This document shows, in pieces, positions 42,580 to 64,000 of a DNA stretch of 64,000 nucleotides; the first letter of the stretch is position 1; every line of letters starts with the position of its first letter. The notes beneath the pieces are model-generated. The model was not told the DNA's origin, ran no database searches, and saw nothing but the letters and a program-made list of their open reading frames with translations. The stretch is from a virus (taxonomy: Duplodnaviria; Caudoviricetes): the IMG/VR virus record IMGVR_UViG_3300024346_000004. One strand, written 5' to 3'. A program made the position numbers and the translations under genes.

Positions 42580-43045
42580 CGATCTTTATCAACACGAATA
42601 TAATAACTTAAATCATTACAACCATAATCACTTGTCTAGATTTTTAGATAAGATTAATTACCCAGACCCAAGAAATGTAAACCCAAAAAACATAGATAAA
42701 AAGATTAGAGACGGTATAGTAAGAATCAATAAAAGCAATTGGGTTTGGACTGTATACTCATGTTCAGGTCATATGAATAAATTTTCTCATCCTTATATCG
42801 TATTTATTGTAGATAATAAATATAAAGGACTACTGTTAGAGAATATATATAATTCATTTAATAAAGACATTGATGATATTAACTTTCCTCTATTTGGCGG
42901 AAGAACATTTGAAATCTCTACCGGCTATTCTGATAATAAATTCTCTATGCTTTCTCTACATATATCTGGTTACAAACGAAGCCGACTAAAAGAATACCAA
43001 TCTATACTAAATAATATACTTTTGAACATTCTCCTTTCACCATAG
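42572..43045 (+). CDS. TYW3-like fold protein (paralog of 31753..32220)
   Basis: IDKKI..IN..WT..SCSGH..PY. Confidence 0.6.
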   Translation: MTSDLYQHEYNNLNHYNHNHLSRFLDKINYPDPRNVNPKNIDKKIRDGIVRINKSNWVWTVYSCSGHMNKFSHPYIVFIVDNKYKGLLLENIYNSFNKDIDDINFPLFGGRTFEISTGYSDNKFSMLSLHISGYKRSRLKEYQSILNNILLNILLSP

Positions 43046-43047
43046 AT

Positions 43048-43075
43048 ATATTATCATATGCTACATAGGATGCAA
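43048..43075 (-). promoter_or_regulatory. Inverted copy of the early sigma70 promoter family
   Basis: Minus strand TTGCAT-cctatgtagcatatga-TAATAT. Confidence 0.65.
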
Positions 43076-43191
43076 TATAATCCCTAATTTATTTTAGGGA
43101 TTTTTTGTTTTAATCCACAAGCCTAACCTCCAGTGTAACATAATAGAAATTTAGTGTTGCTAGTGTTATAGTAAATGTGATATATTAGGGC

Positions 43192-43443
43192 ATGAGAAAA
43201 ATGCGAGTGGTTTTTACAGCAGAGTTTGAAATACCAGATAATGTTGTAATTCATGACGGCGGAATATTCGAATGTGAAGGCGTAGTATTTGAACCTGAAT
43301 TAAACTTTAATTGTGTCGAAGTGGATGTTAATAATCCAGAAGAATTGATTCAGTTTCCTAATGATATCTGGTCTGTTAGTGAATATGAAATTAAACATAT
43401 TCGAGTAAATTCAACAATAGAGGTAGAGAATAATGAAGATTAA
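43192..43443 (+). CDS. Early hypothetical protein
   Basis: ATG 5 nt after TATATT; resembles the next gene (F...EIPD..V.H). Confidence 0.7.
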   Translation: MRKMRVVFTAEFEIPDNVVIHDGGIFECEGVVFEPELNFNCVEVDVNNPEELIQFPNDIWSVSEYEIKHIRVNSTIEVENNED

Positions 43444-43669
43444 TTTTTCAGTTACCGGCACTATGGAAATTCCTGATGATGCAGTTTTTCATCAAGATAT
43501 TTTAAATCAATTATATGCAGTTGAGTTTAATAATAAAATGTATATGCTTCAGGTATGTTTAGTTGCTGAAAGTCCTAATGGTGAATATGAAATGTTACAC
43601 CAATATGACGACATGGAAAAACATGATATTAAAAATGTTCGTTATGATTCAGCAGAGTTTAGCGAATAA
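43433..43669 (+). CDS. Early hypothetical protein
   Basis: GAGG SD; MKINFSVTGTMEIPDD. Confidence 0.7.
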   Translation: MKINFSVTGTMEIPDDAVFHQDILNQLYAVEFNNKMYMLQVCLVAESPNGEYEMLHQYDDMEKHDIKNVRYDSAEFSE

Positions 43670-43701
43670 AATATAGCCCAGAAAATAATCTGGGCTTTTT
43701 C

Positions 43702-43730
43702 TTGCTATCGTATGTAACAGGTGATACTAT
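43702..43730 (+). promoter_or_regulatory. Early sigma70 promoter
   Basis: TTGCTA-17-TACTAT with TG extension and TGTAACAGGTG spacer. Confidence 0.75.
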
Positions 43731-43762
43731 TCTTTGTTGGTGATTTTGATTAGGAGAATAAA

Positions 43763-44416
43763 ATGCCGAACTGGGTAATGAACGAACTAACCTGCATCTT
43801 CCAAACTAAGGAAGAGTGCGATTCTTTTATGAGCAAGGTAGATGAAGATAATTTATATCATTCTTTCTTCCCTATGCCTGAGATTTTGAGCGAAACACAA
43901 AGTCCTGATGTTAATGTAAATGCATTGATTCTTGATTACAATCGGGAAACAAATTCTACAGCAATGGGTCTCACTGAAATTATCAACAGTGGTCATTCTT
44001 TGTTTACAAGTATTGCACAACAGGCTCTCAAGAATCAACAAGCACAAATCGCTACTGGATTCACTAACTGGTACGATTGGTCTGTTGATAATTGGGGTGT
44101 CAAGTGGGATGCTTCTCAAGTTATAGTAAAAAAACTACCTGATTTCAATACAGTAATTTATTCTTTCAATAGTCCTTGGGATACTCCAGAGAAATTTGTA
44201 GAAGGATTGTCTAAACTGTATCCTAATGTTGTATTCGAGATGGTATCGGGTTCTATTGAAAATGATAACCATTATGAGTTTACCTGTAAGGATGGCAAAC
44301 TTGAAATAACCTGTTGCTATGGTTCATTTCGAGAAGCCGTAGAATGTGGTAAATGGGGCGGTATGGCTGAATGGGCTGAAGTATTTGAGGAGAGTGAAGA
44401 AAGTGACGCTGAGTAA
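43763..44416 (+). CDS. DUF1281 / YubB ferredoxin-like protein
   Basis: MPNWVMNEL..WYDWSVDNWGVKWDA..FNSPWDTP. Confidence 0.85.
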   Translation: MPNWVMNELTCIFQTKEECDSFMSKVDEDNLYHSFFPMPEILSETQSPDVNVNALILDYNRETNSTAMGLTEIINSGHSLFTSIAQQALKNQQAQIATGFTNWYDWSVDNWGVKWDASQVIVKKLPDFNTVIYSFNSPWDTPEKFVEGLSKLYPNVVFEMVSGSIENDNHYEFTCKDGKLEITCCYGSFREAVECGKWGGMAEWAEVFEESEESDAE

Positions 44417-44612
44417 ACTTATCGCAGAACTCCAGAAAATTAAAAAAGAGTATGGAGACGTTGATTGTGTCCTCTCTATTGACACATCTGATGCTTTTAA
44501 TGAGACTAACCTTCTTGATGTTGTAGTAAATAAATATGAAGCAATGGACACTAATGATGGTTATGTCTATAGTGTATGTCTTCACGGTGAACTGACCCAA
44601 CAAGAAGACTAA
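44403..44612 (+). CDS. Hypothetical protein
   Basis: GTG start; TLSKLIAELQKIKKEYGDV. Confidence 0.65.
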   Translation: MTLSKLIAELQKIKKEYGDVDCVLSIDTSDAFNETNLLDVVVNKYEAMDTNDGYVYSVCLHGELTQQED

Positions 44613-44620
44613 AAGATATT

Positions 44621-44659
44621 GGGGAGATGCTTGCATCTCCCCTTATCATATGTTATAAT
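44621..44659 (+). promoter_or_regulatory. Hairpin-embedded sigma70 promoter
   Basis: GGGGAGATGC-TT-GCATCTCCCC contains TTGCAT; 17 nt to TATAAT. Confidence 0.75.
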
Positions 44660-44664
44660 AAGCC

Positions 44665-44862
44665 ATGGAAAACCTTAAGTGGATATCAGCAATGTCAGAA
44701 CGATTGAGAGATGAACTTTCAAAAGAGTATGATGACGAAACTAAAGATTTAATTATTAGAGCATTTCGTAACGGGCTATTCCAAAATCCCGGTATTGTGG
44801 AAGAATTAAAATCTTCTTCTCTAATTGAATCAGATTATTTCGAGGATGCAGATGAAGATTGA
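44665..44862 (+). CDS. Hypothetical protein (leaderless candidate)
   Basis: ATG 5 nt after TATAAT. Confidence 0.65.
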   Translation: MENLKWISAMSERLRDELSKEYDDETKDLIIRAFRNGLFQNPGIVEELKSSSLIESDYFEDADED

Positions 44863-45073
44863 AAAATTTATCTATATGGCTGATGGCTTCTATGTTTATA
44901 AAATGGAAGATGGATATGCAGTCAAAGACCAATTCGGCTATACATTAAAAACAGCCAAGACAGTTAAGACTTGCGAGAGATATGTCCAACTACAATTACA
45001 AACAAGAAGAGTAGCAGAAAGATATGCAATTGAAAAAATTAATGACGAACACAAAAAAAATCGAGCAAGTTAA
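44852..45073 (+). CDS. Hypothetical protein
   Basis: GAGG SD before MKIEKF. Confidence 0.65.
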   Translation: MKIEKFIYMADGFYVYKMEDGYAVKDQFGYTLKTAKTVKTCERYVQLQLQTRRVAERYAIEKINDEHKKNRAS

Positions 45074-45103
45074 AGAACTAAAAGAACAAGGTATAATTTA
45101 AAT

Positions 45104-45352
45104 ATGTTGCCTATAATCAGTGTATTAATTTTATCTTCCTTAAACCCGATTAAGAATTTCGTATCATTAAAAACTTATATCTCTGAGAATGCTAAGATTC
45201 ATTGTCAAGTATATTTTATTGATGAAAATATCGCAGACTATCCTAGAGTAAATATAATCGAAAAATCCAAAGATGATTTTTTTATATATCTAGATTCTAT
45301 TGGGGTAGAACACAAACAACTAGGCGGATACTATTTTTTTAAGAAGAAATAA
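45104..45352 (+). CDS. Small exported protein
   Basis: Hydrophobic N-terminus; ATG 6 nt after TATAAT. Confidence 0.55.
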   Translation: MLPIISVLILSSLNPIKNFVSLKTYISENAKIHCQVYFIDENIADYPRVNIIEKSKDDFFIYLDSIGVEHKQLGGYYFFKKK

Positions 45353-45453
45353 TTCACAATGATGTATATTATTTTATTTGATATTATTGTAACAATTGTT
45401 ATACTTTTTGTTATTACTAGGTTGAAATCTAGATTGCGGTGATATAATACCTT

Positions 45454-46350
45454 ATGAACCTCTCCTTGTGTTGTATATCTAATGTCTTGGCTGAACAGGG
45501 ATATAAATTCCGCACCATGACATATAAATCTTTTTCTTCCAAACCGAGAGAGGAATCATTAGAAAAGTTATCTTCTATAATAAGTAATAATTTTTCTGTT
45601 GCTGAGAAGATAGTAAAGCATTGTTCTTCTTCTGGTATTAAAGGTTATCGTTTGTCTTCTGATTTATGTCCAGTAATTAAGCATCCTGATGTTATGTTAA
45701 ATTTAGAAGATTTGCCTAACTATGGATTTATTAAGTATGAGATAGATAAATTAAAAAGAACTATTAAAGAAACAGGTATTCGTGTTTCTGCTCATCCATC
45801 AGAATATATTACTCTTACTTCTGATGACCCTGTGAAAGTAAATCATTCTATTGTTGATTTGGAATTTCATGGGGAGATATTTGATAGATTAGAATTATCC
45901 CAAACGTATTATAATCCACTTAATATCCATGTACGAAAAGAAGGCGAAGCAGATGCATTAGCCAAAACATTCATGGATAATTATAATAAGTTATCTGACA
46001 GTGTAAAGAATAGACTTGTATTAGAAAATAATGATACAGGTAATACTTGGACTGTTGCTAATCTAAAGAAATATTTTTATTCTTCTCACGGTATTCCAGT
46101 AACATTTGATAATTTACATCACGAAATGTTAAATCATGGAACATCTTATTATGATGCTTTTTATGATGCTCTTTCTACTTGGACAGTTCAGCCTTTATTC
46201 CATTACAGTGAAGGAAAGAACGGTACAAGAGCGCACAAGGATATGGCGGAGCATTTACCTACACATTATGATGAAGATGTAATGTTTGATGTAGAGCTTA
46301 AGAGTAAAGACTATGCTATACTGGATATGTTGAGGAAAAACAATGGATAA
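45454..46350 (+). CDS. uvsE: UV DNA damage endonuclease (UvdE/UvsE)
   Basis: LCCI, YRLSSDL, RVSAHPSEY, RLVLENND, FDNLHH, HYSE, RAHKD, ELKSKD. Confidence 0.93.
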   Translation: MNLSLCCISNVLAEQGYKFRTMTYKSFSSKPREESLEKLSSIISNNFSVAEKIVKHCSSSGIKGYRLSSDLCPVIKHPDVMLNLEDLPNYGFIKYEIDKLKRTIKETGIRVSAHPSEYITLTSDDPVKVNHSIVDLEFHGEIFDRLELSQTYYNPLNIHVRKEGEADALAKTFMDNYNKLSDSVKNRLVLENNDTGNTWTVANLKKYFYSSHGIPVTFDNLHHEMLNHGTSYYDAFYDALSTWTVQPLFHYSEGKNGTRAHKDMAEHLPTHYDEDVMFDVELKSKDYAILDMLRKNNG

Positions 46351-47078: not shown

Positions 47079-47084
47079 TACACT

Positions 47085-47766: not shown

Positions 47767-49767
47767 ATGATAGCAGAAACAACCAACAATGTTATTATTC
47801 GTAGTAACAATAGCGTAGAGACATTTTTCTCCATTAAAGAAGAGAATACAGCGCATATTTTCTCAATTCTCAGGGGACAACTATATTCTGATAAGATAAT
47901 GGCTATTATTCGTGAATACAGCACGAATGCCTTAGATGCTCATGTTGCTTCTGGTATTACAAAGCCTATCAACATTAGCCTACCGTCTTATTGGGGCGAT
48001 GGTAAGTTTGTAGTTCGTGATTATGGCACTGGTTTGTCCGATGATGATATTAAAAATGTCTTTGCATCCTATGGCGAATCTACAAAGCGAAATACAAATA
48101 ATCAAGTAGGTATGCTTGGTCTGGGTAGTAAATCCGCTTTTGCATATACTAGCACATTCCTTATTACCTCTTATCACAATGGTATTAAAAATGTATACAA
48201 TGCTTTTATCGATGAATCCAATAAAGGTGTAGTATCGCTCGTTTCATCTTCCGAAACAGATGAAACTGGATTAGAAATTACAATCCCAATAAAAGCACAA
48301 GACGCTAAAATATTATCTGATAAATGTTATTTCTTCTTCCGATATTGGGATAATATTCCTACCTTCAATAATGATAATATCGTCCGGCAGATTAACACAT
48401 TCAAGTCTTCATTCAAAACCCTAGAAGGCAATAACTGGTATATTGTTAAAAAGCACTATGGTGAACCGACTCTTATCGTTCATATGGGAAATATCGCTTA
48501 TCCTGTATCTACTGAAAATATTAATCTAGAATCTGATGATAGAAAAATATTAGACCAAAACGGTTACACTATTCATCTTAAAGCAGAAATTGGTGATGTT
48601 ACAAATTCAGCGTCTAGGGAATCATTAGAATTAAATGATAAAACCCAAAAATGGATTATCAACGCTATCAATAATATCAACGTGGAAGTGCAAAAAGTAA
48701 TACAGCAGAAGGTTACTAAATGCCGTAGTATCTTTGAAGCAAAATCAATCTATTATGATGTTTCGTTTGCAAGTATGGGAATTCCGTCTTATAAATATAA
48801 TGCTCATACTATAACAAATAATAATCTTTCATTAGACGGAGCGAAAGTAAAAGTATATTATAGTACTCTTGCTAATCGGGCTAGAATTCAAAAATATATT
48901 ATTTGCCAATCGAATACAGTCTATTATGTTGCTAGTCCTTGTACTCCAGAATATACTATTAAACAAAGATTAATCCAACATCTAGGTGATAGTGAAAAGC
49001 CTACATTAATATATTTCTCATCTGATGCAAAAGCGCAAGAATTTATTAATAGTCCAGATATGATTGGAGCAAATCTAGTTCATGTCAAAACCTTACCTGC
49101 TGTTCAATCGGTCAAATCCAAAACACCGAGAGTAGCAATGGCAGATGCAGAATATTATTCTTTCAATAGATATGGTAGTACTAACAGCGACCATTGGAAA
49201 GTTGCGAAAGAAGTAGACTTGGATGAACAGCGAATTTATGTTGTTATTTCCAGATTCTCCCCTGAACGCAACGGATTGAAATTTGATATCACTAACAGCA
49301 CTATTAACGATTTAGAACAATATGGTATTAAAAATATCATCGGTGTTAAACCAAAACATATTAAATCTGTAGGTGATTCTTGGCTTAGTCTTACAGAAGC
49401 GTTAAAGAAAAGTGCAGACGAACTATATTATAATAATGAACAGGAGATTAATAAACTCTTAGAAGCAGAACGTGTAGATGATTTATTCAAGTCCATTCAT
49501 AGATATAAAACGTCAAATACTAGTATCACAAATCCTGAATTGAAATATATTATGGAATTGCTTGATTTCGCTGATAATGATTACAAAAGCGCAAATGCTC
49601 TTCATAATATTAAAATGATAAAAGCGTATATTAATTATAATATTCCATACGAACCTTACATTGTTAAAGAAAAACAAGAAGTTCTAATGAAGGATGAAAA
49701 GATTAATATTATCTCCCAATACATTAGAAGCCCATTTTCAATATATAATCAAATAATGGAAATGTAA
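47767..49767 (+). CDS. rIIA: rIIA-like protein (GHKL ATPase)
   Basis: LYSDKIMAIIREYSTNALDAH, RDYGTGL, STK, GMLGLGSKSAFAY, MGNIAYP, SRESLE. Confidence 0.9.
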   Translation: MIAETTNNVIIRSNNSVETFFSIKEENTAHIFSILRGQLYSDKIMAIIREYSTNALDAHVASGITKPINISLPSYWGDGKFVVRDYGTGLSDDDIKNVFASYGESTKRNTNNQVGMLGLGSKSAFAYTSTFLITSYHNGIKNVYNAFIDESNKGVVSLVSSSETDETGLEITIPIKAQDAKILSDKCYFFFRYWDNIPTFNNDNIVRQINTFKSSFKTLEGNNWYIVKKHYGEPTLIVHMGNIAYPVSTENINLESDDRKILDQNGYTIHLKAEIGDVTNSASRESLELNDKTQKWIINAINNINVEVQKVIQQKVTKCRSIFEAKSIYYDVSFASMGIPSYKYNAHTITNNNLSLDGAKVKVYYSTLANRARIQKYIICQSNTVYYVASPCTPEYTIKQRLIQHLGDSEKPTLIYFSSDAKAQEFINSPDMIGANLVHVKTLPAVQSVKSKTPRVAMADAEYYSFNRYGSTNSDHWKVAKEVDLDEQRIYVVISRFSPERNGLKFDITNSTINDLEQYGIKNIIGVKPKHIKSVGDSWLSLTEALKKSADELYYNNEQEINKLLEAERVDDLFKSIHRYKTSNTSITNPELKYIMELLDFADNDYKSANALHNIKMIKAYINYNIPYEPYIVKEKQEVLMKDEKINIISQYIRSPFSIYNQIMEM

Positions 49768-49834: not shown

Positions 49835-51106
49835 ATGGAACCTTCATTCACTTGTAATCCCGCCCCATCATCCGGATTCCTCACCGTGTTCATTGATTCT
49901 GAACAGTACACCATTACAGCGGAGAACGTAAACTTTCGTAATGCTATCAAGTTTCTCTCCGAAAAGAATTGGGAGGAACTGAAATTCGTTCTCAACCCTA
50001 CTCTTAAGTTTAATTCCCTCTACGCACAATATGAGAATATTATTGTTAAAGACGGCAATGTAACAATCGATGGGGAAATGGTAAACGGCATTATCGCATC
50101 TCGTATTATTAATCTCATGGCTAATAATATCGACTGTACACCGATTTTCAAGTTCATGACCCGACTACAATTAAATCCTAGCAAAAGAGCAGTGGATGAA
50201 TTGTATACATTCTTAGAGCATAGGAATTTGCCCATTACATCCAATGGCACAATTCAAGCCTACAAAGCAGTGAGAGCAAATTACACCGATTGTCATACTG
50301 GAACGTTTAATAATACGGTTGGTAATACTCTTCAAATGCCTCGTAACAAGGTCGATGATAACAAGGACGTAGGATGCTCCCACGGCTTCCATGCAGGGAC
50401 ATTTGATTACGCCAAAGACTTTATGCCTGAAGGCGGTCATCTGCTCATCGTGGAAATCGACCCTGCTGATGTTGTAAGTATTCCAACAGATTGTAATTTC
50501 CAGAAATTGCGTACCTGTAAATATAAGGTTACACAAGAATATAATGTAACCTTGGATGAAAATAAAATTCAGGATTCATATCTGGAAACAGACAATGATA
50601 CTTATGTTAATCAGAAATGGGAAAACAAACCATTAATGATGGATGTAATATCTGTATCCGATGTTGTTAATCTTCTTGACAAATGGGGAGAAGATGAAGC
50701 AGTACAAGATATTAAAAAAATATCCCCGACAGAAGATGTAATGCCTCTGGGTGTATTAAAAGATACTATATCTGAAAACCTCTTTGATGAACTAATGGAA
50801 GAATTCGAGGAGCAAGACCCTGAAGAATTCGAGCCGGAAGAACAAGACTCCGAGGAATTCGAGGATGATGAGGATGAGGATTCTTACGAGGAGATTACTG
50901 TAGACCTATCATCTCATATTGATATGAAGGCTACATTAAAGAACCTTGATGAAGCACAATATGTTAAGCTGAAGAACGCATTGGAAAAGGAATACAAAGA
51001 TTTCGAGTCTGTTCAAATGGGAGAAGTATTAAAATATATTGATTCCATCTATGACGATTCAGATTATATTTTCGATATCCTTCTGCAATATAAAGTAGAC
51101 GCATAA
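49835..51106 (+). CDS. rIIB: rIIB-like protein with an acidic C-terminal extension
   Basis: NPSKRAVDELYTFL, AYKAV, MPRNKVDD, CSHGFHAG, DVVSIPTD, KLRTCKY; adjacent to rIIA. Confidence 0.9.
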   Translation: MEPSFTCNPAPSSGFLTVFIDSEQYTITAENVNFRNAIKFLSEKNWEELKFVLNPTLKFNSLYAQYENIIVKDGNVTIDGEMVNGIIASRIINLMANNIDCTPIFKFMTRLQLNPSKRAVDELYTFLEHRNLPITSNGTIQAYKAVRANYTDCHTGTFNNTVGNTLQMPRNKVDDNKDVGCSHGFHAGTFDYAKDFMPEGGHLLIVEIDPADVVSIPTDCNFQKLRTCKYKVTQEYNVTLDENKIQDSYLETDNDTYVNQKWENKPLMMDVISVSDVVNLLDKWGEDEAVQDIKKISPTEDVMPLGVLKDTISENLFDELMEEFEEQDPEEFEPEEQDSEEFEDDEDEDSYEEITVDLSSHIDMKATLKNLDEAQYVKLKNALEKEYKDFESVQMGEVLKYIDSIYDDSDYIFDILLQYKVDA

Positions 51107-51529: not shown

Positions 51530-51560
51530 CATATGTGATAATATATGTGTGGAGGAAATA

Positions 51561-52250
51561 ATGGAACCAAATCAAAACATCATCGAGAAGATTAAGAAAC
51601 TACTCGCCCTTTCAGCATCCCCTAATGAGAACGAAGCATCCACCGCCCTGAGAATGGCAATGGATATGCTCTCTAAACATAACCTCTCTATGACAGAAAT
51701 CAACGTAGAGAAAAAAGAATCTGTAGAACACGAAGAAGTAAAGTTCACCGGCAAGAGATTTTCTACATGGCGAACAGAATTGCTTAACTCTGTATCTGAT
51801 GCTCACTATTGTCACATCCTAAAAGTATCTGGCACTGGAGTATATTATATTATCGGCAAGCAAACGAACAGACAAGCAACTATCTTGATGTTTACATACT
51901 TAGCCAATGTTGTAGAATTTGAATGCAAAAGTCATATGGCTAGCCTGTCCCTTACCAAACAAGAAGGCAAGACATATGCTAACAGTTTCAAACTAGGCAT
52001 GGTTCATAGACTACGACAAAGATTGATGGAAAAGAAGAATTCTATTATCTTAGAGTCAAAGTCCAATGCTCTTATTAAAGTAGACCCATATACGCTTTCT
52101 AAGGCTGAAAACAACGACTACATAAGAAGCAAGTTTAGAGTAACACAACAGCAGGAGAGCAACAGTAGAATCAACGGTAGTGCTTATGCTCAAGGCGATA
52201 GAGCAGGTAATAGAGTTGGGCTTAATGGCTCTAGAGCGATAACAGCTTAA
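51561..52250 (+). CDS. DUF2786-domain protein
   Basis: IIEKIKKLLALSASPNENEA..A..MLSKHNL; GGAGG SD. Confidence 0.85.
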   Translation: MEPNQNIIEKIKKLLALSASPNENEASTALRMAMDMLSKHNLSMTEINVEKKESVEHEEVKFTGKRFSTWRTELLNSVSDAHYCHILKVSGTGVYYIIGKQTNRQATILMFTYLANVVEFECKSHMASLSLTKQEGKTYANSFKLGMVHRLRQRLMEKKNSIILESKSNALIKVDPYTLSKAENNDYIRSKFRVTQQQESNSRINGSAYAQGDRAGNRVGLNGSRAITA

Positions 52251-52360: not shown

Positions 52361-53317
52361 ATGGCTTTTGTATATGACCCGGCAACAATATTATCAATCA
52401 CTACAAATATAGGTAATGCGGATGCGACATTACAGGCAGAGGTTAATACTCTTCCTTCTACTTATATCATTGGAACTGTATCTGTTAGTAATACAGTAGT
52501 AACAGGAACAGGAACAACATGGCAAGTATCACCCTTTTTATCAGGGGCTAGAATTGGATTCGGTAGTACTAACCCAGATTTAATTTCTACTTGGTATGAT
52601 GTAACAGTGATTAATACAAATACACAAATCACATTATTATCCTCTGCTGGTATTATTGGTTCTGGTTCCTCCTATGTATTACAACAGAAAAGAAGCGGAT
52701 TAAAGCTTGGAACTGAAAATAGATTAACAGTAGCAGATTGTATTGCTGATAATAATATTGTTAATGCTGATTTTGATAGTAGCACAATATTAGCACAGAG
52801 CATGAGAACATCAGAAAACGCATTGTCCAGCACTTTGTCTTCTGTTTACGCATCTTATCAAACAGCATTAGATACATATGTTAACGCTAATAAATCAGCA
52901 ACAGTAAGAAATTATTATAATTCCTTATCCGTAGAAAGATCAGTAGCATTTACAGAAAATTATCGTAGTTTCTATAGAAGAATTAAATCAGAAGAATTGA
53001 TTGTAAAATTATATTCTAATACCAAATCCGTAGGTGTCTGGGGTTCTACTGTTAACCACTACTCTACTACTAATATGCTTGCTACTCTGCTGGAAGTTAG
53101 AACAGGGTCTCTCATCGGTGCTTCTGATGTTGTTGTTACCCTAGTGCCAATCAAATCAGATGGAACTAACGATTCACCAAAGACTTTAAATATACCAGCA
53201 ACAACAGCAAATAAAACTCAATACGCAATCAATGATACTACAAAATATAAAGGAATATTTTCTATTGGAATCACAGGCGGAACCAATGGAGATATTATTG
53301 AAGTTTGGATTAAATAA
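52361..53317 (+). CDS. Probable virion structural / fibre-like protein
   Basis: T/S/G-rich GTVSVSNTVVTGTGTTW; AAAGG-N20-CAAAAA late-type promoter. Confidence 0.6.
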   Translation: MAFVYDPATILSITTNIGNADATLQAEVNTLPSTYIIGTVSVSNTVVTGTGTTWQVSPFLSGARIGFGSTNPDLISTWYDVTVINTNTQITLLSSAGIIGSGSSYVLQQKRSGLKLGTENRLTVADCIADNNIVNADFDSSTILAQSMRTSENALSSTLSSVYASYQTALDTYVNANKSATVRNYYNSLSVERSVAFTENYRSFYRRIKSEELIVKLYSNTKSVGVWGSTVNHYSTTNMLATLLEVRTGSLIGASDVVVTLVPIKSDGTNDSPKTLNIPATTANKTQYAINDTTKYKGIFSIGITGGTNGDIIEVWIK

Positions 53318-54306: not shown

Positions 54307-54388
54307 GGCACCTTGGCGAAATTGGCATATGCGACAGCCTTAAAAGTTGTTGGGGCAACCCATGAGAGTTCGACCCTCTCAGGTGCTA
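54307..54388 (+). tRNA. tRNA-Leu(TAA)
   Basis: Cloverleaf; ACAGC-CTTAAAA-GTTGT anticodon arm; long variable arm; GTTCGAC. Confidence 0.85.
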
Positions 54389-54394
54389 TGGTTT

Positions 54395-54467
54395 GGGACG
54401 GTAACTCAGTGGCTAGAGTAGTCGCCTTTTAAGCGATTTGTCGTGGTTTCGAATACCACCCGTCCCA
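54395..54467 (+). tRNA. tRNA-Lys(TTT)
   Basis: GGGACGG/CCGTCCC acceptor; GTCGC-CTTTTAA-GCGAT anticodon arm. Confidence 0.9.
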
Positions 54468-54497
54468 TTGTTTGATTAAATTCTTTGGGAGATTAAA

Positions 54498-56262: not shown

Positions 56263-56389
56263 AAGGGTGTTCAAGATGACTACAGCATCAAGAACAAAAT
56301 CCAGAATGTGGTGATTCTGGTATCAATGTGAGAAGAATGGTTATACTCCTTTCCGGTTGTGTTTTCCGCCCCATTCTTCTCACACCCTT
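56263..56389 (+). ncRNA. Putative multi-hairpin ncRNA with a pyrimidine (anti-SD-like) loop
   Basis: Follows TTGACA-16-TAATAT; three hairpins including a 14-bp TGTGAGAAGAATGG/CCATTCTTCTCACA stem. Confidence 0.5.
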
Positions 56390-56459
56390 AGGTGGTTAGC
56401 TTAATAGTAGAGCAAAGGAACATAAGCCTTCTGTATGGGTGCGAATCCTATACCACCTT
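56390..56459 (+). tRNA. Degenerate tRNA-like element (CAT in an aberrant loop)
   Basis: AGGTGGT/ACCACCT acceptor, D and T arms present; 4-bp anticodon stem with 8-nt loop AACATAAG; TGCGAAT T-loop. Confidence 0.55.
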
Positions 56460-56525
56460 TTTCCTGATTGATGGTTTGAAAATTTACTTGTAGGGGTATG
56501 AGTAAGGTCAATCAGGAAGGCAATT

Positions 56526-57020
56526 TTATAATATTAAGTCTGGATTGTGTCTTTCTCTATGGCAATTCGCACAGACTAATACACACTTGTTTACTTCTTC
56601 TACTAACCTATCCCATTTTGAACAAGAACATTTTCTTAAGTCAATACCAAATGATTTTTCTTCTGGATTAAGATGGTGAAATTCAAGGGCTGATATATTT
56701 TTATTATATCCGCAATCGCAACATTTTCCTCCAGCAATTTCAATCAATTGTTTTTTTCTTTCCAATCCTCTTGCTTGTTGTGCAGTATATACTTGATGTT
56801 TATGATTAGTGCTTTTTACTTTGCATTTAACTGAACAAAATTTAGTTTGATTTCCTGTTAGAGGAGTTTTACATATCTCGCAATTAATATTATTGATTTT
56901 TCCTAATTCATATTTTGCTACCCAATATCTGATAGAGGTCAGACTTTTGCCTGTGATTTTTGATATTTGAATTAAGGATTTATTTTCTCTTATCATGTTT
57001 ACTAATAATTCTTTTTCCAT
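56526..57020 (-). CDS. HNH (homing) endonuclease with N-terminal HTH and Zn-finger
   Basis: CCDCGY..ALEFHH..KCVLVCANCHRERH; free-standing, antisense within the tRNA region. Confidence 0.88.
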   Translation of the reverse strand: MEKELLVNMIRENKSLIQISKITGKSLTSIRYWVAKYELGKINNINCEICKTPLTGNQTKFCSVKCKVKSTNHKHQVYTAQQARGLERKKQLIEIAGGKCCDCGYNKNISALEFHHLNPEEKSFGIDLRKCSCSKWDRLVEEVNKCVLVCANCHRERHNPDLIL

Positions 57021-57125
57021 TTGTTTTCCTTTTACATAGATTATGAACATTGTCATAATTTTTTATACAAAAAAGTTAATTGATATTCCTTGCATTCAGT
57101 TTTAGATATGGTAATATATTGATAT

Positions 57126-57203
57126 GGCAGTTTAGCTTAGTTGTCCTAAAGCACTCGACTCATAATCGAAATATCGTAGGTTAGAATCCTACAACTGCCA
57201 CCA
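57126..57203 (+). tRNA. tRNA with CAT anticodon (Ile2-like or elongator Met), CCA encoded
   Basis: GGCAGTT/AACTGCC-A-CCA; TCGA-CTCATAA-TCGA arm resembles Ile2. Confidence 0.88.
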
Positions 57204-57228
57204 ATTTTTGTTAGAAAGATATAAAAAA

Positions 57229-59795: not shown

Positions 59796-59920
59796 TCCAA
59801 TCAAATCCCCCAAGTTTAGTGGTGTTTTCTTGGGGGATTTTTATTATTGGAGATATAAATATATTTTCTTGACATACAGTTCCACTTACTATATACTATT
59901 GGTGTAAGGGAGATAGGACA

Positions 59921-60211: not shown

Positions 60212-60291
60212 AAAGAACCCCAAGTGAAAATCTGGGGATTCCTATTGACAAGATTGTAGCATATGATATACTTAATCCAAGGAGATAGGGT

Positions 60292-60447: not shown

Positions 60448-60515
60448 TATACAGGGGAGACTAATCATCTCCCCTATTTTCTTGACATCATTGTAGCAGG
60501 TGATATACTAAAGAT

Positions 60516-60758
60516 ATGAAAGACTACAACGGCTGGAAGAACCAAGAGACGTGGTGTGTGAGTATGTTTCATATGCTCCACGTTGAAGAAGCGGTGAGAC
60601 GGAATATGGATATTGATGATATTAAATATTATATTATCAGCAAGAACAAAATGGATAAGATGAATATATTTGAAAGAGATATGTTTCAAATCGCTCTCGC
60701 TAATGTTGACTGGGAAACCTTAGCAAATCGAGCAAAGGAAAATATCGAGCAAAAATAA
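60516..60758 (+). CDS. Conserved phage protein (YNGWxNxETW motif)
   Basis: MKDYNGWKNQETW..VDWETLA. Confidence 0.75.
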   Translation: MKDYNGWKNQETWCVSMFHMLHVEEAVRRNMDIDDIKYYIISKNKMDKMNIFERDMFQIALANVDWETLANRAKENIEQK

Positions 60759-60803
60759 TATAGGTTTAGGATATAATAGATTATCTTACTTTGAGAGAAC
60801 TAT

Positions 60804-61661
60804 ATGTCCAAACCTTTATTCATATGGGCTGGCGGTAAAAATAAAATGTTAAAACATTATAAGCCGTGGATGCCTAAAACAGTAGATAAATATTTCGAGC
60901 CTTTCTTCGGTGGTGGCGCAATGTTTATCCACGTATTTAATAATTATAAACCTGATGAAATGGTGATTAATGATATAAATACAGATATAGTTAGAATATA
61001 CAAAACGATTAAATCAGATTGTAATTCTTTTATTAAAATATTAGACAATCTATCCCAACAATATTTACCATTAGATAAAGAAAATCGAAAAGAATTTTAT
61101 TATTCCTTACGACATACACACGCTTATGATTATTTAAAATGGGACGCAACAGAAGAAGCGGCTAATTTATATTTCTTAATGAAGACTGGATTCAACGGTA
61201 TATTCCAAGTTAATATAAATACAAATAATCGTTTCGGAACACCATCAGGATTATTAAACCAAAAAGATAAGGTGTTCGATAAGGATGTTGTTCTCTGGTG
61301 GAATAAAGCACTACAAAATACCACCATTCTTTCTGGAGACTGGAAAGAAACAACATCACTAGTAAAAGATATCCCTGACACATTTGTATTCTTAGACCCA
61401 CCGTATAGAGGCTCGTTTACTTCTTATGGTCAAACATTCAATGACAATGACCAAACAAACTTAGTAGAGTTCGCAAAGAAATTCGAGCATACTAGAGTGT
61501 TCTTATGTAATCGAGATATAGAAGATAATTTTTATGAAAATATCTTAGAGGACTTATTAATAAATAAATATCCTGTTACCTATACAGCAGGAAGAAGAAA
61601 AAAGACAGAAGATGGGTTTGAAGCGAAGAAAGCAACAGAAGTATTGATTAGAAATATGTAG
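60804..61661 (+). CDS. Dam-family (D12 class) N6-adenine DNA methyltransferase
   Basis: KPLFIWAGGK, YFEPFFGGG, INDIN, FNG, FLDPPY. Confidence 0.93.
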   Translation: MSKPLFIWAGGKNKMLKHYKPWMPKTVDKYFEPFFGGGAMFIHVFNNYKPDEMVINDINTDIVRIYKTIKSDCNSFIKILDNLSQQYLPLDKENRKEFYYSLRHTHAYDYLKWDATEEAANLYFLMKTGFNGIFQVNINTNNRFGTPSGLLNQKDKVFDKDVVLWWNKALQNTTILSGDWKETTSLVKDIPDTFVFLDPPYRGSFTSYGQTFNDNDQTNLVEFAKKFEHTRVFLCNRDIEDNFYENILEDLLINKYPVTYTAGRRKKTEDGFEAKKATEVLIRNM

Positions 61662-61690
61662 AATTATATTTACATGAAGGGAGGATTATA

Positions 61691-62332
61691 ATGATATTAC
61701 AAGTTAATCCTACAATCAATGTTTCTTTCAATGTGGCTCCCGGTTTGCTCATTAAACCTGAAGAAGTAATGGAGATTCCTCACACTGTTTATGTTAATAA
61801 CTTTGATGAGGAATCTTCTAAATTATTTTTAGAAGACTTTACTAGAGCAAGCAATTCATTTCAACCAATTATTCCTATTATTATTGATTCTTACGGCGGA
61901 GATGTTTACTCATTATTATCTATGATTGATGTTATAGAAAATTCGAGTAAACCAGTAGCAACCGTATGTGTCGGTAAAGCAATGTCCTGTGGTGCTATTC
62001 TGCTGTCTTGTGGGCATAAAGGACATAGATACATAGGTAATCATGCAACAGTTATGATTCACGATGTATCAGCTTATTCTGACGGTAAATTTGAAGAAGT
62101 AAAATCGAACGCTAGAGAAACTACTAGACTGCAAAAAGAAATGTTTAATATATTAGACAAAAACGCAGACAAGTTTACTGGCTATTTCGATAGATTAGTT
62201 TTTCGAAGAGGCAGAAGTGATTGGTATATGAAAGCAGAAGACGCACTAAAACATGGAATAGCAGACCACATAGGCGTTCCAAAGTTTACCGTAGATATTC
62301 TTACTGTTTGCAAATTCTCCCTTGACAAATAA
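61691..62332 (+). CDS. Divergent ClpP-family protease
   Basis: IDSYGG, GKAMSCG, VMIHD, DWYMKAEDALKHGIAD. Confidence 0.88.
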   Translation: MILQVNPTINVSFNVAPGLLIKPEEVMEIPHTVYVNNFDEESSKLFLEDFTRASNSFQPIIPIIIDSYGGDVYSLLSMIDVIENSSKPVATVCVGKAMSCGAILLSCGHKGHRYIGNHATVMIHDVSAYSDGKFEEVKSNARETTRLQKEMFNILDKNADKFTGYFDRLVFRRGRSDWYMKAEDALKHGIADHIGVPKFTVDILTVCKFSLDK

Positions 62333-62380
62333 AAAATACAAAGATACAATACAACATACCAACCCTTATAAGGAAATCGA

Positions 62381-62584
62381 ATGAAGAGCCAACACTTTTC
62401 ACACATTAAAAAAACAGTGGGAGAAGACGAATATAAGAAATTGAGAACTATTGTTTTGCAGCAACCTCTCAACGTCGCAATCCCAGGAAATAAAATCGCC
62501 ACTCATAGATTACTGCATATTCTTAAAGAACACACAGCATCTAAAATTATCAAATCTTGGAACGTTGATTTTATTGTTATGTAG
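62381..62584 (+). CDS. Hypothetical protein
   Basis: Promoter at 62322; AAGGA SD. Confidence 0.6.
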   Translation: MKSQHFSHIKKTVGEDEYKKLRTIVLQQPLNVAIPGNKIATHRLLHILKEHTASKIIKSWNVDFIVM

Positions 62585-62675
62585 GAATTAAATCCTAACA
62601 TATATAATAAAAATAATAAGCGACGAAGCCTATTAGAATTATCTAGTAGGCTTTTTGTCTTTTAAGGTGAAAACA

Positions 62676-62930
62676 ATGAATAAAAATCTAAAAGCGATTG
62701 ATGTATTACTTGGACTATTTTTCTTGTCTATTGGCTGTTTTTCAGGCTATTCTTTTGCTAATATCGAGCAACCAATTGAAAATAATAAACCATCTGTAGA
62801 AGCAATGGAATGTTATCGAGCAATGCATACATATTATAATAAAGAATATTTTGATAAATCGAGAAATGTTAAGACTCATATTACGAAGAAACAACCTTTA
62901 TTAAGCGACAAATATACTCAACGCAATTGA
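62676..62930 (+). CDS. Membrane-anchored or exported hypothetical protein
   Basis: AAGGTG SD; N-terminal hydrophobic helix. Confidence 0.65.
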   Translation: MNKNLKAIDVLLGLFFLSIGCFSGYSFANIEQPIENNKPSVEAMECYRAMHTYYNKEYFDKSRNVKTHITKKQPLLSDKYTQRN

Positions 62931-63153
62931 CACACACATATATTACAGGTAATATTAAGAGGATACTTGAAAATCTTATCGAGCCTAAGACAGAGTAAAG
63001 TATCATGGGGAAGAGGTAGAGCAATAGTTCCTTCTTCCCCTTTTTTCGAGTATAGATTATTTTCGAGTATTATTTCTCAATGTTTTCGAATATATAGTTT
63101 TCAAAATATGTCTTGACAACAGATTATTTGTGGTATAATATAGACGTAAATAA

Positions 63154-63225
63154 TCCAACTTAGCTCAGAGGTAGAGCAAACGGCTGTTAACCGTTCGGTC
63201 GATGGTTCGATCCCATCAGTTGGAG
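63154..63225 (+). tRNA. tRNA-Asn(GTT)
   Basis: TCCAACT/AGTTGGA acceptor; AACGG-CTGTTAA-CCGTT arm; GGTTCGATCC. Confidence 0.93.
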
Positions 63226-63480
63226 TTTTTCTTTCGGTAGTGTAATCGTAGCACAAAGGTAACAATGGATACCTTTAGATAGAGCCAGAGAATATGCTTG
63301 ATTAGTGCGGAATCTATATCAGGCTAGGGCAGAATGAGGTAGAATTCCTCTTTATCAACAGTGGTATTAATAACCCACTTGCGCTTTATGGTGAACTCAA
63401 GCCATCAAAACAAGATTGAATTGGTTTTGCCTTTTCCCCATAGTAAAATATGGGGATTTATTATTTAAAAAGATAATCCT

Positions 63481-63789
63481 ATGACAGAATTTCAAACTAG
63501 AATAATAAAAGATAAGGTGGAAGAAATAAATAATCTTTACTCACCTATCACTCTGCACTTTGATGCCGCCTGTATTAGAAAAGTGGAACAAGAAGATAAT
63601 TGGTTCGTCACAATAATACATCTCATAACAGAAGAAGATTGGATTCAATTCGCATCTTTAGAATATAATTATCATACTGTTATTGATAAACTAAAAGGCT
63701 GGGCTGATGCTTTAGAGGCAACCAAAGAATATATTAATATACATGGTTCCCTAAAAATAAATCCCAAGTCTGAAAGAAATGTGATATAA
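63481..63789 (+). CDS. Hypothetical protein
   Basis: 102 aa ORF. Confidence 0.65.
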   Translation: MTEFQTRIIKDKVEEINNLYSPITLHFDAACIRKVEQEDNWFVTIIHLITEEDWIQFASLEYNYHTVIDKLKGWADALEATKEYINIHGSLKINPKSERNVI

Positions 63790-63796
63790 TAATAAT

Positions 63797-63928
63797 ATGA
63801 ACAACCTTTACATTTATATTATCGGCGGAGTTTTATTTATGATGTATATTCCAGTCTTTTATGAAATTTATATGTTGCGAAAAATAATCAAATCAATCGC
63901 AAAAAAGACGGAAAAACTCGTAGACTAG
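63797..63928 (+). CDS. Small membrane protein (43 aa)
   Basis: MNNLYIYIIGGVLFMMYIPVFYEIYMLRKIIKSIAKKTEKLVD; ATG 6 nt after TATAAT. Confidence 0.55.
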   Translation: MNNLYIYIIGGVLFMMYIPVFYEIYMLRKIIKSIAKKTEKLVD

Positions 63929-63967
63929 TGGTATAATAGATTTGTAAGTTTGAAGAGACTTACATAC

Positions 63968-64000
63968 GCACCAGTAACTCAGTGGATTAGAGTAACAAGC
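63968..64000 (+). tRNA. 5' part of a tRNA truncated by the window edge (identity not visible)
   Basis: GCACCAG-TA-ACTCAGTGGATTAGAGT D-arm. Confidence 0.7.

What the first reader, a model, noticed from the sequence alone, without database searches (positions are those of the whole stretch)
42590..64000. Abrupt GATC (and AGCT) desert covering the whole early arm
Seen: after GATC at 42581 I find only two more in 21.4 kb (52938 inside the late-type structural gene, 63209 in a tRNA T-arm), versus roughly 60 expected and dozens in the left arm. AGCT, very common on the left, drops to about seven, three of them in tRNA-like D-stems. The boundary coincides with the start of the early promoter array. 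Established analogy: the first-transferred DNA of T5 avoids restriction sites. Inference: staged injection in which this arm is exposed to host nucleases before phage MTases or other shields act.
Basis: partly seen in the sequence, partly recalled or inferred. Interest (0 to 1): 0.8.

Follow-up and report, generated by a model that had tools for sequence, protein, structure and literature searches.

The report
Restriction-site-free early block, jumbo phage
A contiguous block of about 32 kb of early genes in an uncultured freshwater jumbo phage has been almost completely cleared of six short palindromes of the kind bacterial restriction enzymes cut, while the rest of the genome keeps them; distant relatives show the same, so this block is probably the DNA that meets host nucleases before the phage's protection is in place.

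Summary
It is an island, not an arm that runs to the genome end.

**Extent.** In the 165.9-kb contig the desert runs from window 42,582 to about 75,100, roughly 11 kb past the window. Normal density then returns.

**Depletion.** GATC, AGCT, GGCC, GGNCC, GCWGC and CCWGG together occur 32 times against 402 expected from the bulk density. A synonymous-codon shuffle confirms this (GATC 5 vs 67, AGCT 8 vs 69). CGCG is absent from the whole contig.

**Not a chimera.** At least nine independent assemblies cross the left edge.

**Selection is ongoing.** A strain about 9% diverged gained only 3 sites, and 5 sites differ between the two strains, where random substitutions would create about 39.

**Conservation.** Two relatives of 316-358 kb (rIIA 33-38% identical) have the same island of roughly 27-31 kb.

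**Position decides.** UvdE and Dam orthologues are site-free inside an island and site-rich outside it.

**Content.** rIIA/rIIB, small ORFs, promoter/terminator cassettes and tRNAs.

**Reading.** I read this as restriction-site avoidance confined to first-exposed early DNA, as in the T5 first-step-transfer region. Staged entry itself is unproven, because no genome ends or read depths could be obtained. The scan has noted comparable early-region purges in other phages.

The parts
42582..64000 (.). The part of the site-free island that lies in the window. The island continues to about 75,100 in window numbering (genome about 159,780; L008 about 11,780).
   Evidence: 13 sites of the six words in 21.4 kb (0.61 per kb), against 12.3 per kb in the bulk.
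42355..42600 (+). Left edge. The stop of the 74-aa gene (42,355-42,579) overlaps the start of the 157-aa gene (42,572-43,045). The last flank GATC is at 42,581.
   Evidence: The same junction and the same step occur in strain L012, about 90% identical, and in at least nine other assemblies.
43079..43190 (+). First terminator-hairpin and promoter-like cassette of the island. It is related to the cassettes of the small-gene array at the island's far end.
43192..44416 (+). Three acidic proteins at the leading edge (83 aa, pI 4.2; 78 aa, pI 4.4; 217 aa, pI 4.2). Function unknown. Conserved in the island of G001.
   Evidence: Weak DUF1281_C match and PHROG families of unknown function.
45454..46350 (+). 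UvdE UV-damage endonuclease. It has 1 site here. Its 76%-identical orthologue lies just outside the island in G001 and carries 14 sites.
47767..49767 (+). rIIA homologue (HATPase_c_3).
49835..51106 (+). rIIB homologue.
   Evidence: (PF26926).
51549..52250 (+). DUF2786/DUF7168 protein.
54307..54468 (+). tRNA-Leu(taa) and tRNA-Lys(ttt).
56390..56459 (+). tRNA (CAT anticodon loop) missed by ARAGORN. It holds the residual AGCT at 56,398.
56526..57056 (-). HNH homing-endonuclease gene. The stretch 56,336-57,220 does not align in strains L009 and L010.
57126..57203 (+). tRNA-Met. It holds the residual AGCT at 57,134.
60804..61661 (+). Dam-family (D12) N6-adenine DNA methyltransferase. It has 0 sites here. 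Its 67%-identical orthologue lies outside the island in G002 and carries 9 sites.
61691..62332 (+). ClpP-like protease.
63154..63225 (+). tRNA-Asn. It holds the residual AGCT at 63,162 and GATC at 63,209.
37693..40900 (+). Flanking polar TTCGAG array: 21 copies on the + strand and none on the - strand. It runs through NrdG, a methyltransferase-like gene and an ECF sigma factor gene. It is not part of the desert, but it adjoins its edge in this phage and in G001.

Best explanation
**Shown.** The roughly 32-kb block is the phage's early, host-takeover region. It holds rIIA/rIIB, many small genes behind repeated promoter/terminator cassettes, tRNAs and a Dam methylase. Continuing selection removes recognition sites of Type II-like restriction enzymes (GATC, AGCT, GGCC, GGNCC, GCWGC, CCWGG) from this block only. 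Words the whole genome must avoid are purged everywhere: CGCG in all three phages, CTAG or CATG in single lineages. The island's avoided set therefore includes the bulk's set plus six more words.

**Inferred.** The block is the only phage DNA that host restriction enzymes can reach before an early phage function makes the cell safe for the rest. The most likely way to achieve this is stepwise genome delivery, as in phage T5. The block enters first and is expressed, and only then does the remaining ~90% follow. The block may be, or may lie in, a long terminal repeat that assemblers collapse.
For: - **Specificity.** Depletion is specific to short palindromes, not to strand-specific or asymmetric words. 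It survives a synonymous-codon null.
- **Shape.** Both edges are sharp and the block is single and contiguous.
- **Ongoing selection.** Between G000 and strain L012 the island has 1,160 substitutions but only 5 strain-specific sites. The same substitutions placed at random would create 39 ± 6 new sites (minimum 26 in 300 trials). The flank has 283 substitutions and 17 strain-specific sites.
- **Conservation.** The same island of about 27-31 kb (about 8-9% of the genome) occurs in G001 (358 kb) and G002 (316 kb), whose rIIA is only 33-38% identical. L014-L017 also show it.
- **Position, not ancestry.** UvdE has 1 site inside the island against 14 outside. Dam has 0 against 9.
- **Superset relation.** The island avoids everything the bulk avoids, plus six more words.
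- **Methylation is an unlikely shield for the bulk.** There is no C5 methyltransferase and only 2-3 methyltransferases per genome.
- **Early-type content.**. Median gene size is 108 aa against 184 aa in the bulk.
- **Precedents.**
  - T5-like phages are restricted only through first-step-transfer sites (PMC10644984).
  - Sensitivity of T7-like phages is set by the early-injected region (PMC12455610).
  - The 22.5-kb terminal repeat of CBB alone avoids GAATTC (1 vs 186), ACATGT, TCTAGA and AAGCTT, while GCGC and CTTAAG are absent genome-wide.
  - The 66-kb terminal repeat of XacN1 carries rIIA and tRNAs.
Against: - No physical genome end, terminal repeat or doubled read depth could be examined. 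IMG/VR classes G000-G002 as linear without end repeats.
- The left edge sits between two overlapping, co-directional genes, and at least nine assemblies read through it. A collapsed terminal repeat would allow this, but it gives no positive sign of an end.
- A strict sigma-70 consensus scan does not clearly separate island from bulk: 0.18 against 0.10 hits per kb. 'Early' therefore rests on gene content.
- No homologues of T5 A1, A2 or dmp were found.
- Earlier notes of this scan call these phages distant relatives of phage G. Phage G shows no such island.
- A jumbo phage of another lineage (G007) has a patchwork of deserts that includes large genes, so regional avoidance can arise in other ways.
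Confidence: 0.5

Rival explanations
1. **Early-class exposure without staged entry.** The whole genome enters at once. Only the early block is accessible to, or must survive, host nucleases. The bulk might arrive coated or condensed by co-injected head proteins. Alternatively, cuts in the bulk might be tolerated once early proteins (end-protection, ligase, recombination) are made. Selection would then act only on the early transcription units.
For: - The right edge coincides with the outermost cassette of a leftward small-gene array, that is, with a transcription-unit border.
- In the L015 lineage the left edge lies at a divergent intergenic region.
- No terminus has been demonstrated.
- Earlier notes of this scan (e1-5482698 and others, not checked here) describe many proteins of this phage that carry capsid-targeting leaders and could be co-injected.
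Against: - A single cut anywhere in an unreplicated genome is normally lethal, so avoidance confined to early genes gives little benefit unless the bulk is shielded. No such shield is known.
- In G000 the left edge is not at a visible promoter or terminator. It lies between translationally coupled genes.
- One contiguous block of about 8-9% of the genome in three genomes fits a physical segment better than a temporal class, which in T4-like phages is scattered (the latter from general knowledge).
Confidence: 0.25
2. **Self-inflicted constraint.** The block avoids words recognised by the phage's own early enzymes, meaning its own restriction endonucleases used against host or rival DNA, or its own methyltransferases whose marks would disturb host RNA polymerase or attract methyl-dependent nucleases.
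For: - The islands of G001, G002 and L018 each carry an N6_N4 methyltransferase next to an IceA/NlaIII-family gene. G001 and L018 purge CATG.
- A Dam-family methylase is encoded in the island of G000.
Against: - Where a phage-borne R-M pair is present, the matching purge (CATG in G001) is genome-wide, not confined to the island.
- G000 has no such pair and only two adenine methyltransferases, which cannot account for AGCT, GGCC, GGNCC, GCWGC and CCWGG.
- The bulk keeps GATC at near-normal frequency although Dam would methylate it too.
Confidence: 0.08
3. **Mosaic ancestry.** The block is a module acquired from, or exchanged with, phages that rely on site avoidance. Its composition would then be inherited rather than maintained in place.
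For: - The island differs from the bulk in GC (+3%) and in CpG observed/expected (0.75 vs 0.47).
- Its gene content turns over between strains: L009 has different genes upstream of window 44,651.
- Another lineage (G007) is a patchwork of deserts.
Against: - The island, its core genes and its compositional offset are shared by three genomes whose rIIA is 33-38% identical, so it is ancient.
- CGCG avoidance is shared by island and bulk.
- Orthologues take on the site content of their current location.
- New sites are still being rejected.
Confidence: 0.05
4. **Assembly chimera** joining two different phages at window about 42.58 kb.
For: The step is abrupt and the source is a metagenomic contig.
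Against: - At least nine contigs from different samples and assemblers carry the same gene order across the junction. One of them is a strain about 90% identical that shows the same step.
- Normal density returns on the far side of the island in the same contig.
Confidence: 0.01

Closest known systems
[quoted passage not shown]
   Same: - It is a contiguous block of about 8% of the genome, with small host-takeover genes in two oppositely oriented units.
- Restriction acts on the phage only through sites in this block, so sites are selected against there and tolerated elsewhere (PMC10644984; annotation).
- A repeat-rich cis element adjoins the block (the T5 injection stop signal, 10.1101/866236). 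Here a polar TTCGAG array and a 1.5-kb non-coding core adjoin it (the core is from note e1-5482708, not checked here).
   Different: - There are no A1, A2 or dmp homologues, and no demonstrated terminal repeat or two-step transfer.
- The block is three times longer.
- The purge is far stronger and targets 4-5-bp words. In my count the T5 block shows only mild 4-mer depletion (observed/expected 0.5-0.6 for GGCC, CGCG, CCGG, AGCT) and lacks 12 six-base palindromes that are each expected about 3 times.
- The repeat array here lies inside coding genes that carry normal site density.
Early-injected region of T7-like phages (Autographiviridae), where the position of sites decides sensitivity to restriction
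   Same: Only motifs in the first-entering early region matter for restriction. Motifs further in are harmless because early proteins act before they enter (PMC12455610).
   Different: - That work concerns Type I motifs in 40-kb podoviruses with known ends and transcription-driven entry.
- Here the words are Type II-like, the phage is about 360 kb, and entry order is unknown.
Long direct terminal repeats of jumbo phages (vB_PcaM_CBB 22.5 kb, XacN1 66 kb) and the SPO1 host-takeover terminal repeat
   Same: - They are tens of kilobases of small early genes and tRNAs. In XacN1 rIIA lies inside the repeat.
- In CBB the repeat alone avoids several palindromes on top of a genome-wide set.
- Such repeats collapse in assemblies and look internal (PMC5852040, PMC5259590).
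   Different: - The terminal-repeat status of the present block is untested.
- XacN1 purges its words genome-wide rather than locally.
- In CBB the locally avoided words are 6-mers and the effect is smaller.
Leading region of conjugative plasmids (first DNA to enter the recipient)
   Same: - It is first-entering DNA enriched in anti-defence genes and somewhat GC-richer than the rest (PMC11541004, PMC13478746).
- The island is also about 3% GC-richer and carries an orphan Dam methylase together with DUF932 and DUF2786 proteins. I could not confirm any link between those two DUF families and plasmid leading regions.
   Different: - Plasmid leading regions are reported as not consistently depleted in short palindromes (PMC13478746). 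This island is extremely depleted.
- Plasmid transfer is as single-stranded DNA.
Genome-wide restriction-site (palindrome) avoidance in phages
   Same: The same kind of words and the same presumed selective agent. Seen here genome-wide for CGCG, for CTAG in G002, for CATG in G001, for GATC in XacN1 and for CCGG in LR756511.
   Different: Six of the words are purged only in one block of about 32 kb and are at or above chance elsewhere.

Membership tests
Restriction-site (palindrome) avoidance | The depleted words are short palindromes of Type II recognition-site type | tested here: met
   The lowest Markov observed/expected 4-mers in the island are all palindromes. After these are removed, no asymmetric 5- or 6-mer is consistently depleted.
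Restriction-site (palindrome) avoidance | Depletion exceeds what base composition, amino-acid sequence and codon usage give | tested here: met
   Synonymous-codon shuffle: GATC 5 vs 67 (z -10.5), AGCT 8 vs 69 (z -8.9), GGCC 1 vs 18, CCWGG 2 vs 15.
Restriction-site (palindrome) avoidance | Maintained by selection, with new sites rejected | tested here: met
   5 strain-specific sites for 1,160 substitutions, against 39 ± 6 new sites simulated. The flank has 17 for 283. Orthologues outside the island regain sites.
Restriction-site (palindrome) avoidance | The avoided words match the host's restriction enzymes | not testable with these tools
   The host is unknown and no REBASE copy is available.
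T5-type first-step-transfer region | Lies at a physical genome end inside a long direct terminal repeat | not testable with these tools
Contigs are classed linear without end repeats. Assemblies read through the left edge, which a collapsed repeat would also give.
T5-type first-step-transfer region | Enters the cell alone, and transfer of the rest needs its gene products | not testable with these tools
   The phage is uncultured.
T5-type first-step-transfer region | Restriction-relevant sites are selected against in this segment only | tested here: met
T5-type first-step-transfer region | Pre-early genes A1, A2 and dmp | tested here: not met
   No tblastn hit at E<=1 in G000, G001 or G002.
T5-type first-step-transfer region | Non-coding, repeat-rich injection stop signal at the inner border | tested here: inconclusive
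   A conserved polar TTCGAG array adjoins or overlaps the edge in G000 and G001. However, it lies in coding genes with normal site density, 1.7 kb outside the edge in G000. Single copies are not more conserved than chance (15 of 19 against 13 expected).
Long terminal repeat of jumbo phages (CBB/XacN1 type) | Twofold read depth over the segment and defined ends | not testable with these tools
Contig-name coverages did not yield an island-only and a bulk-only contig from one sample.
Long terminal repeat of jumbo phages (CBB/XacN1 type) | Tens of kilobases of small early genes with tRNAs (rIIA inside in XacN1) | tested here: met
Promoter/stem-loop gene cassettes of phage hyperplastic early regions (PeSL type) | Small genes separated by near-identical promoter-hairpin/terminator units | tested here: met
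   Ten copies of an 88-133-nt unit at L008 7,230-12,115, spaced 350-1,050 nt apart. Sequence homology to published PeSLs was not tested.

The most novel reading that the evidence does not exclude
A family of freshwater jumbo phages of about 360-400 kb delivers its genome in two steps, like T5. First comes a segment of about 30 kb, perhaps a long terminal repeat collapsed in assemblies, that has been cleared of restriction sites. A conserved polar TTCGAG array at the segment's inner border would serve as the stop or translocation signal. If so, a local palindrome desert is a sequence-only marker of the first-entering DNA in uncultured phages.
Probability: 0.3. Interest if true: 0.8.

Novelty: new variant of a known kind. 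Interest (0 to 1): 0.62.

Why it matters
**Scale of the case.** Position-dependent restriction-site avoidance is known experimentally from T5-like and T7-like coliphages. Surveys of site avoidance have mostly treated phage genomes as uniform, and PMC12455610 notes this gap. This is a very clean case at a much larger scale:
- about 32 kb and six words;
- roughly 12-fold lower site density, with edges sharp to a few hundred bases at most;
- conserved across a family of uncultured jumbo phages;
- demonstrably maintained by present-day selection.

**What it offers.**
1. A testable prediction that these giant phages expose only about 8-9% of their DNA at first.
2. A sequence-only way to delimit the earliest-exposed region, and possibly the genome ends, of uncultured phages.
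3. A two-tier read-out of the host's defences. Some enzymes the phage can neutralise after early expression (GATC, AGCT, GGCC, GGNCC, GCWGC, CCWGG). Others it cannot (CGCG). This could help identify the host.
4. A place to look for new anti-restriction genes, namely the conserved acidic proteins at the block's leading edge.

Tried and rejected
**Searches that found nothing**
- Megablast of 10-14 kb stretches against GenBank phages: no match.
- Single-protein scans of IMG/VR with the two genes at the edge: no relatives. An rIIA alignment was needed to find them.
- Large terminase search with Pfam Terminase_6N and with phage G gp1 in G000-G002: no match, so the packaging type could not be inferred.

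**Read-based tests that could not be done**
- I tried to compare SPAdes coverages written in contig names for an island-only and a bulk-only contig from one sample. No such pair turned up.
- The record behind L009 is not held, so its 12 kb further upstream could not be read.

**Tests that did not discriminate**
- A strict sigma-70 promoter scan does not separate island from bulk.

**Readings considered and rejected**
- RNA-level, strand-specific avoidance, as in note e1-5320964 (mRNA strand free of ATC). Rejected because ATC and GAT are common and the depleted words are palindromes.
- 7-deazaguanine modification genes in the left flank. Rejected because the radical-SAM gene is NrdG.

**Comparisons without an island**
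- Phage G and the 595-kb LR756511 show no island.
- G007 shows a patchwork of deserts, not a single island.

Full report
**1.

The window is positions 84,646-148,645 of a 165,921-bp IMG/VR viral contig, G000. CheckV estimates it as 46% complete, which implies a genome of about 360 kb. Earlier notes of this scan describe it as an uncultured freshwater or estuarine jumbo phage.

GATC occurs 135 times up to 42,581 and afterwards only at 52,938 and 63,209. AGCT falls from 200 to 8 and GGCC from 22 to 0.
- Three of the remaining AGCT and one GATC lie in tRNA genes. One of these tRNAs is detected only by Rfam, at 56,390-56,459.

**2. It is an island, and the avoided set is larger**

On the whole contig the desert starts at genome 127,227 and ends at about 159,780. 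Site density is normal on both sides.

- The six words GATC, AGCT, GGCC, GGNCC, GCWGC and CCWGG together have 12.3 sites per kb in the 127 kb to the left.
- The island has 0.98 per kb, which is 32 sites against 402 expected (P about 1e-127).
- The 6 kb to the right have 10.1 per kb.
- GDGCHC is also absent from the island.
- CGCG is absent from island and bulk alike.
- An unbiased ranking shows that the most depleted 4-mers in the island are all palindromes. Trinucleotides such as ATC stay common.
- Once these words are set aside, no other 5- or 6-mer is consistently depleted.
- A shuffle of synonymous codons within each gene gives expectations of 67 GATC, 69 AGCT, 18 GGCC and 15 CCWGG for island genes. 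Observed counts are 5, 8, 1 and 2. The same test finds no depletion of these words in the bulk.

The effect is therefore at DNA level, specific to restriction-type palindromes, and not a by-product of composition or coding.

**3. Not an artefact, not foreign**

- *Independent assemblies.* An 18-kb contig from another sample (L012, about 90% identical) spans the left edge with the same genes. It has 18 GATC in its first 4.55 kb and none in the next 13.8 kb. Eight further contigs found through NrdG, and one Logan contig, cross the same junction.
- *Ongoing selection.* Between G000 and L012 the island carries 1,160 substitutions in 12.9 kb but only five strain-specific sites. Placing the same substitutions at random would create 39 ± 6 new sites (minimum 26 in 300 trials). 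The flank has 283 substitutions and 17 strain-specific sites.
- *Distant relatives.* Two nearly complete relatives have rIIA proteins only 33-38% identical to this one. G001 (358 kb) has the feature at 157.3-188.5 kb. G002 (316 kb) has it over the first 26.8 kb of the contig.

Observed/expected in island against bulk, for G000 / G001 / G002:

| Word | Island | Bulk |
|---|---|---|
| GATC | 0.11 / 0.02 / 0.06 | 0.79 / 0.62 / 0.83 |
| GGCC | 0.03 / 0.15 / 0.14 | about 0.8 |
| GGNCC | 0 / 0.09 / 0.11 | about 0.9 |
| CCWGG | 0.15 / 0.33 / 0.33 | 1.6-1.9 |
| GCWGC | 0.05 / 0.6 / 0.22 | about 3 |
| AGCT | 0.16 / 0.58 / 0.59 | about 1 |

- *Genome-wide purges.* These also hold inside the island: CGCG in all three genomes, CTAG in G002 (0 copies in 316 kb) and CATG in G001. 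The island's avoided set is thus a superset of the bulk's.
- *Core genes.* Seventeen island genes of G000 have their homologue in the G001 island and thirteen in the G002 island. No bulk gene of G000 has its homologue inside a relative's island.
- *Genes that changed sides.* UvdE has 1 site in 897 nt inside the G000 island. Its 76%-identical orthologue has 14 sites in 891 nt, about 100 nt outside the G001 island. Dam has 0 sites in 858 nt inside (G000) and 9 in 846 nt outside (G002, 67% identical).

Position, not gene ancestry, therefore decides site content.

**4. What the block contains**

- Within the window nearly all genes are on the + strand. They include:
  - a 157-aa protein, followed by three acidic proteins;
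  - UvdE, rIIA and rIIB;
  - a DUF2786/DUF7168 protein;
  - five tRNAs;
  - an HNH homing endonuclease in a stretch that strains L009 and L010 do not align to;
  - a Dam-family methylase and a ClpP-like protease.
- Beyond the window come tRNA-Arg, a DUF932 protein and a TPR protein. Then follows a leftward-transcribed array of about ten very small genes, separated by 88-133-nt promoter-hairpin/terminator cassettes. This array ends at the right edge.
- Median gene length is 108 aa, against 184 aa in the bulk.
- The island is about 3% richer in G+C and less CpG-depleted than the bulk in all three genomes.
- It diverges faster than the flank: 9.0% against 6.0% between G000 and L012.
- Its gene content turns over between strains. 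L009 has other, equally site-free genes upstream of window 44,651.
- This is the profile of a host-takeover early region. However, a strict sigma-70 scan does not separate it clearly from the bulk, and no expression data were available.

**5. Why only here**

- Methylation is an unlikely shield for the bulk. The 166 kb of G000 encode only two DNA methyltransferases, both of adenine type. G001 and G002 encode three each. None is a C5 enzyme.
- Methylation would in any case protect the island as well, because incoming DNA already carries it.
- The simplest reading is that host Type II enzymes can reach only this block before an early phage function makes the cell safe for the rest.
- This is the established logic of T5-like phages, which are restricted only through sites in their first-step-transfer DNA, by a mechanism still unknown (PMC10644984). 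It is also the logic of T7-like phages (PMC12455610).
- My counts put the comparison in proportion.
  - The 9-kb T5 block shows only mild 4-mer depletion and lacks twelve 6-bp palindromes, each expected about 3 times.
  - CBB is a cultured jumbo phage. Its 22.5-kb terminal repeat was inferred from doubled read depth and checked by PFGE (PMC5259590). It shows the same two-tier pattern. GAATTC occurs 1 time in the repeat against 186 in the unique part, ACATGT 1 against 93, TCTAGA 1 against 83 and AAGCTT 1 against 63. GCGC and CTTAAG are absent genome-wide.
  - The 66-kb terminal repeat of XacN1 collapsed in its first assembly (PMC5852040). It carries rIIA and tRNAs.
- A block of about 30 kb, about 8-9% of the genome, that is a collapsed terminal repeat and enters first is therefore plausible. 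It would also explain why assemblies read through its edges.

**6. What is not shown**

- I could not map ends or read depth (some searches were unsuccessful work-arounds).
- I could not type the terminase.
- No T5 A1, A2 or dmp homologues exist.
- The left edge falls at two overlapping co-directional genes.
- Phage G and a 595-kb uncultured phage have no island. G007, from another lineage, has a patchwork of deserts that includes large genes.
- A rival therefore remains open. The whole genome may enter at once, with only the early transcription units accessible or indispensable.
- My estimates: about 0.5 for exposure-limited avoidance through staged entry, about 0.25 for the early-class rival, and small values for self-inflicted constraints, mosaic ancestry or chimera.

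**7. Comparison and novelty**

- The thing works like the T5 first-step-transfer region, but it cannot be filed as a member. Terminal location and two-step transfer are untestable here, and A1/A2 are absent.
- It is a new and extreme variant of positional restriction-site avoidance, in a family of uncultured jumbo phages.
- In the papers I searched I found no description of such an island in jumbo phages, nor of the pattern in the CBB repeat.
- For plasmid leading regions a recent survey found GC enrichment but no consistent palindrome depletion (PMC13478746).
- Earlier notes of this scan report related early-region purges in other phages (e1-519090, e1-5320964, e1-226834). The general phenomenon has therefore been seen before in this scan on other DNA.

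Noticed in passing
window 37693-40900 (+ strand); G001 185,051-197,542: There is a polar TTCGAG array of 21 copies on the + strand and none on the - strand, in all reading frames and in intergenic DNA. It runs through NrdG, a methyltransferase-like gene and an ECF sigma factor gene, next to the island's left edge. G001 has 46 co-oriented copies straddling its island edge. Single copies are not more conserved between strains than chance (15 of 19 against 13 expected). Its function is unknown; it could be Chi-like, or a stop or translocation signal.
   Followed up: partly
L008 8276-8506 (genome 156,276-156,506): Nine GATC lie within 230 bp inside the otherwise GATC-free island. Six of them are in 52 bp of a promoter-like spacer that contains a twice-repeated TGATCGGATC, upstream of a 68-aa gene. 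This may be a Dam-sensitive control site or a recently inserted cassette.
   Followed up: no
L105 13852-15139 (G001 173,852-175,139); L115 14199-15510 (G002); L018 16251-17538: The islands of three relatives carry an N6_N4 methyltransferase next to an IceA/NlaIII-family gene, which looks like a phage-borne Type II R-M pair. G001 purges CATG genome-wide and the 22-kb L018 locus is nearly free of it (3 against 73 expected). G002 instead has no CTAG at all in 316 kb. G000 lacks the pair.
   Followed up: partly
whole contig G000; G001; G002: CGCG is completely absent from 166 kb of G000 and 358 kb of G001, and occurs 7 times in 316 kb of G002. GRCGYC, CTCGAG, GTCGAC, GACGTC and CACGTG are also absent from G000.
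   Followed up: partly
KU574722 (vB_PcaM_CBB), terminal repeat 1-22,456: The terminal repeat alone avoids GAATTC (1 against 186 in the unique part), ACATGT (1 against 93), TCTAGA (1 against 83) and AAGCTT (1 against 63). GCGC and CTTAAG are absent genome-wide. The CBB paper does not mention this (PMC5259590).
   Followed up: partly
AP018399 (XacN1): GATC and 24 of the 64 six-base palindromes are entirely absent from the 385-kb genome. TACGTA is avoided only in the 66-kb terminal repeat (2 against 64 in the unique part). rIIA lies inside the repeat.
   Followed up: no
G007 = IMGVR_UViG_3300025715_000009 (388 kb): This jumbo phage of another lineage has more than 40 tRNAs. It shows a patchwork of separate AGCT, GATC, CTAG and GTNAC deserts, some of them over very large genes (one of 4,755 aa).
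   Followed up: partly
L009 1-6885 versus window 37,767-44,650: A strain whose rIIA protein is identical, and whose DNA is 99% identical from window 44,651 onward, has a different and equally site-free set of genes upstream, including an HNH protein and a second DUF2786/DUF7168 protein. This suggests cassette-wise gene replacement inside the island.
   Followed up: partly
window 56336-57220: The stretch that holds the HNH endonuclease gene and adjoins two CAT-anticodon tRNAs does not align in strains L009 and L010.
   Followed up: no
L215 and L216 (P0028 lineage): Two contigs of 16 and 22 kb, from different samples and assemblers, end within 2 nt of each other, about 235 nt inside the first island gene. 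This is a recurrent assembly breakpoint at the island edge in that lineage. The cause is unknown.
   Followed up: no
island versus bulk in G000, G001, G002: In all three genomes the island is about 3% richer in G+C and has higher CpG observed/expected (0.75/0.63/0.48 against 0.47/0.48/0.33). It also diverges faster between strains (9.0% against 6.0%).
   Followed up: partly
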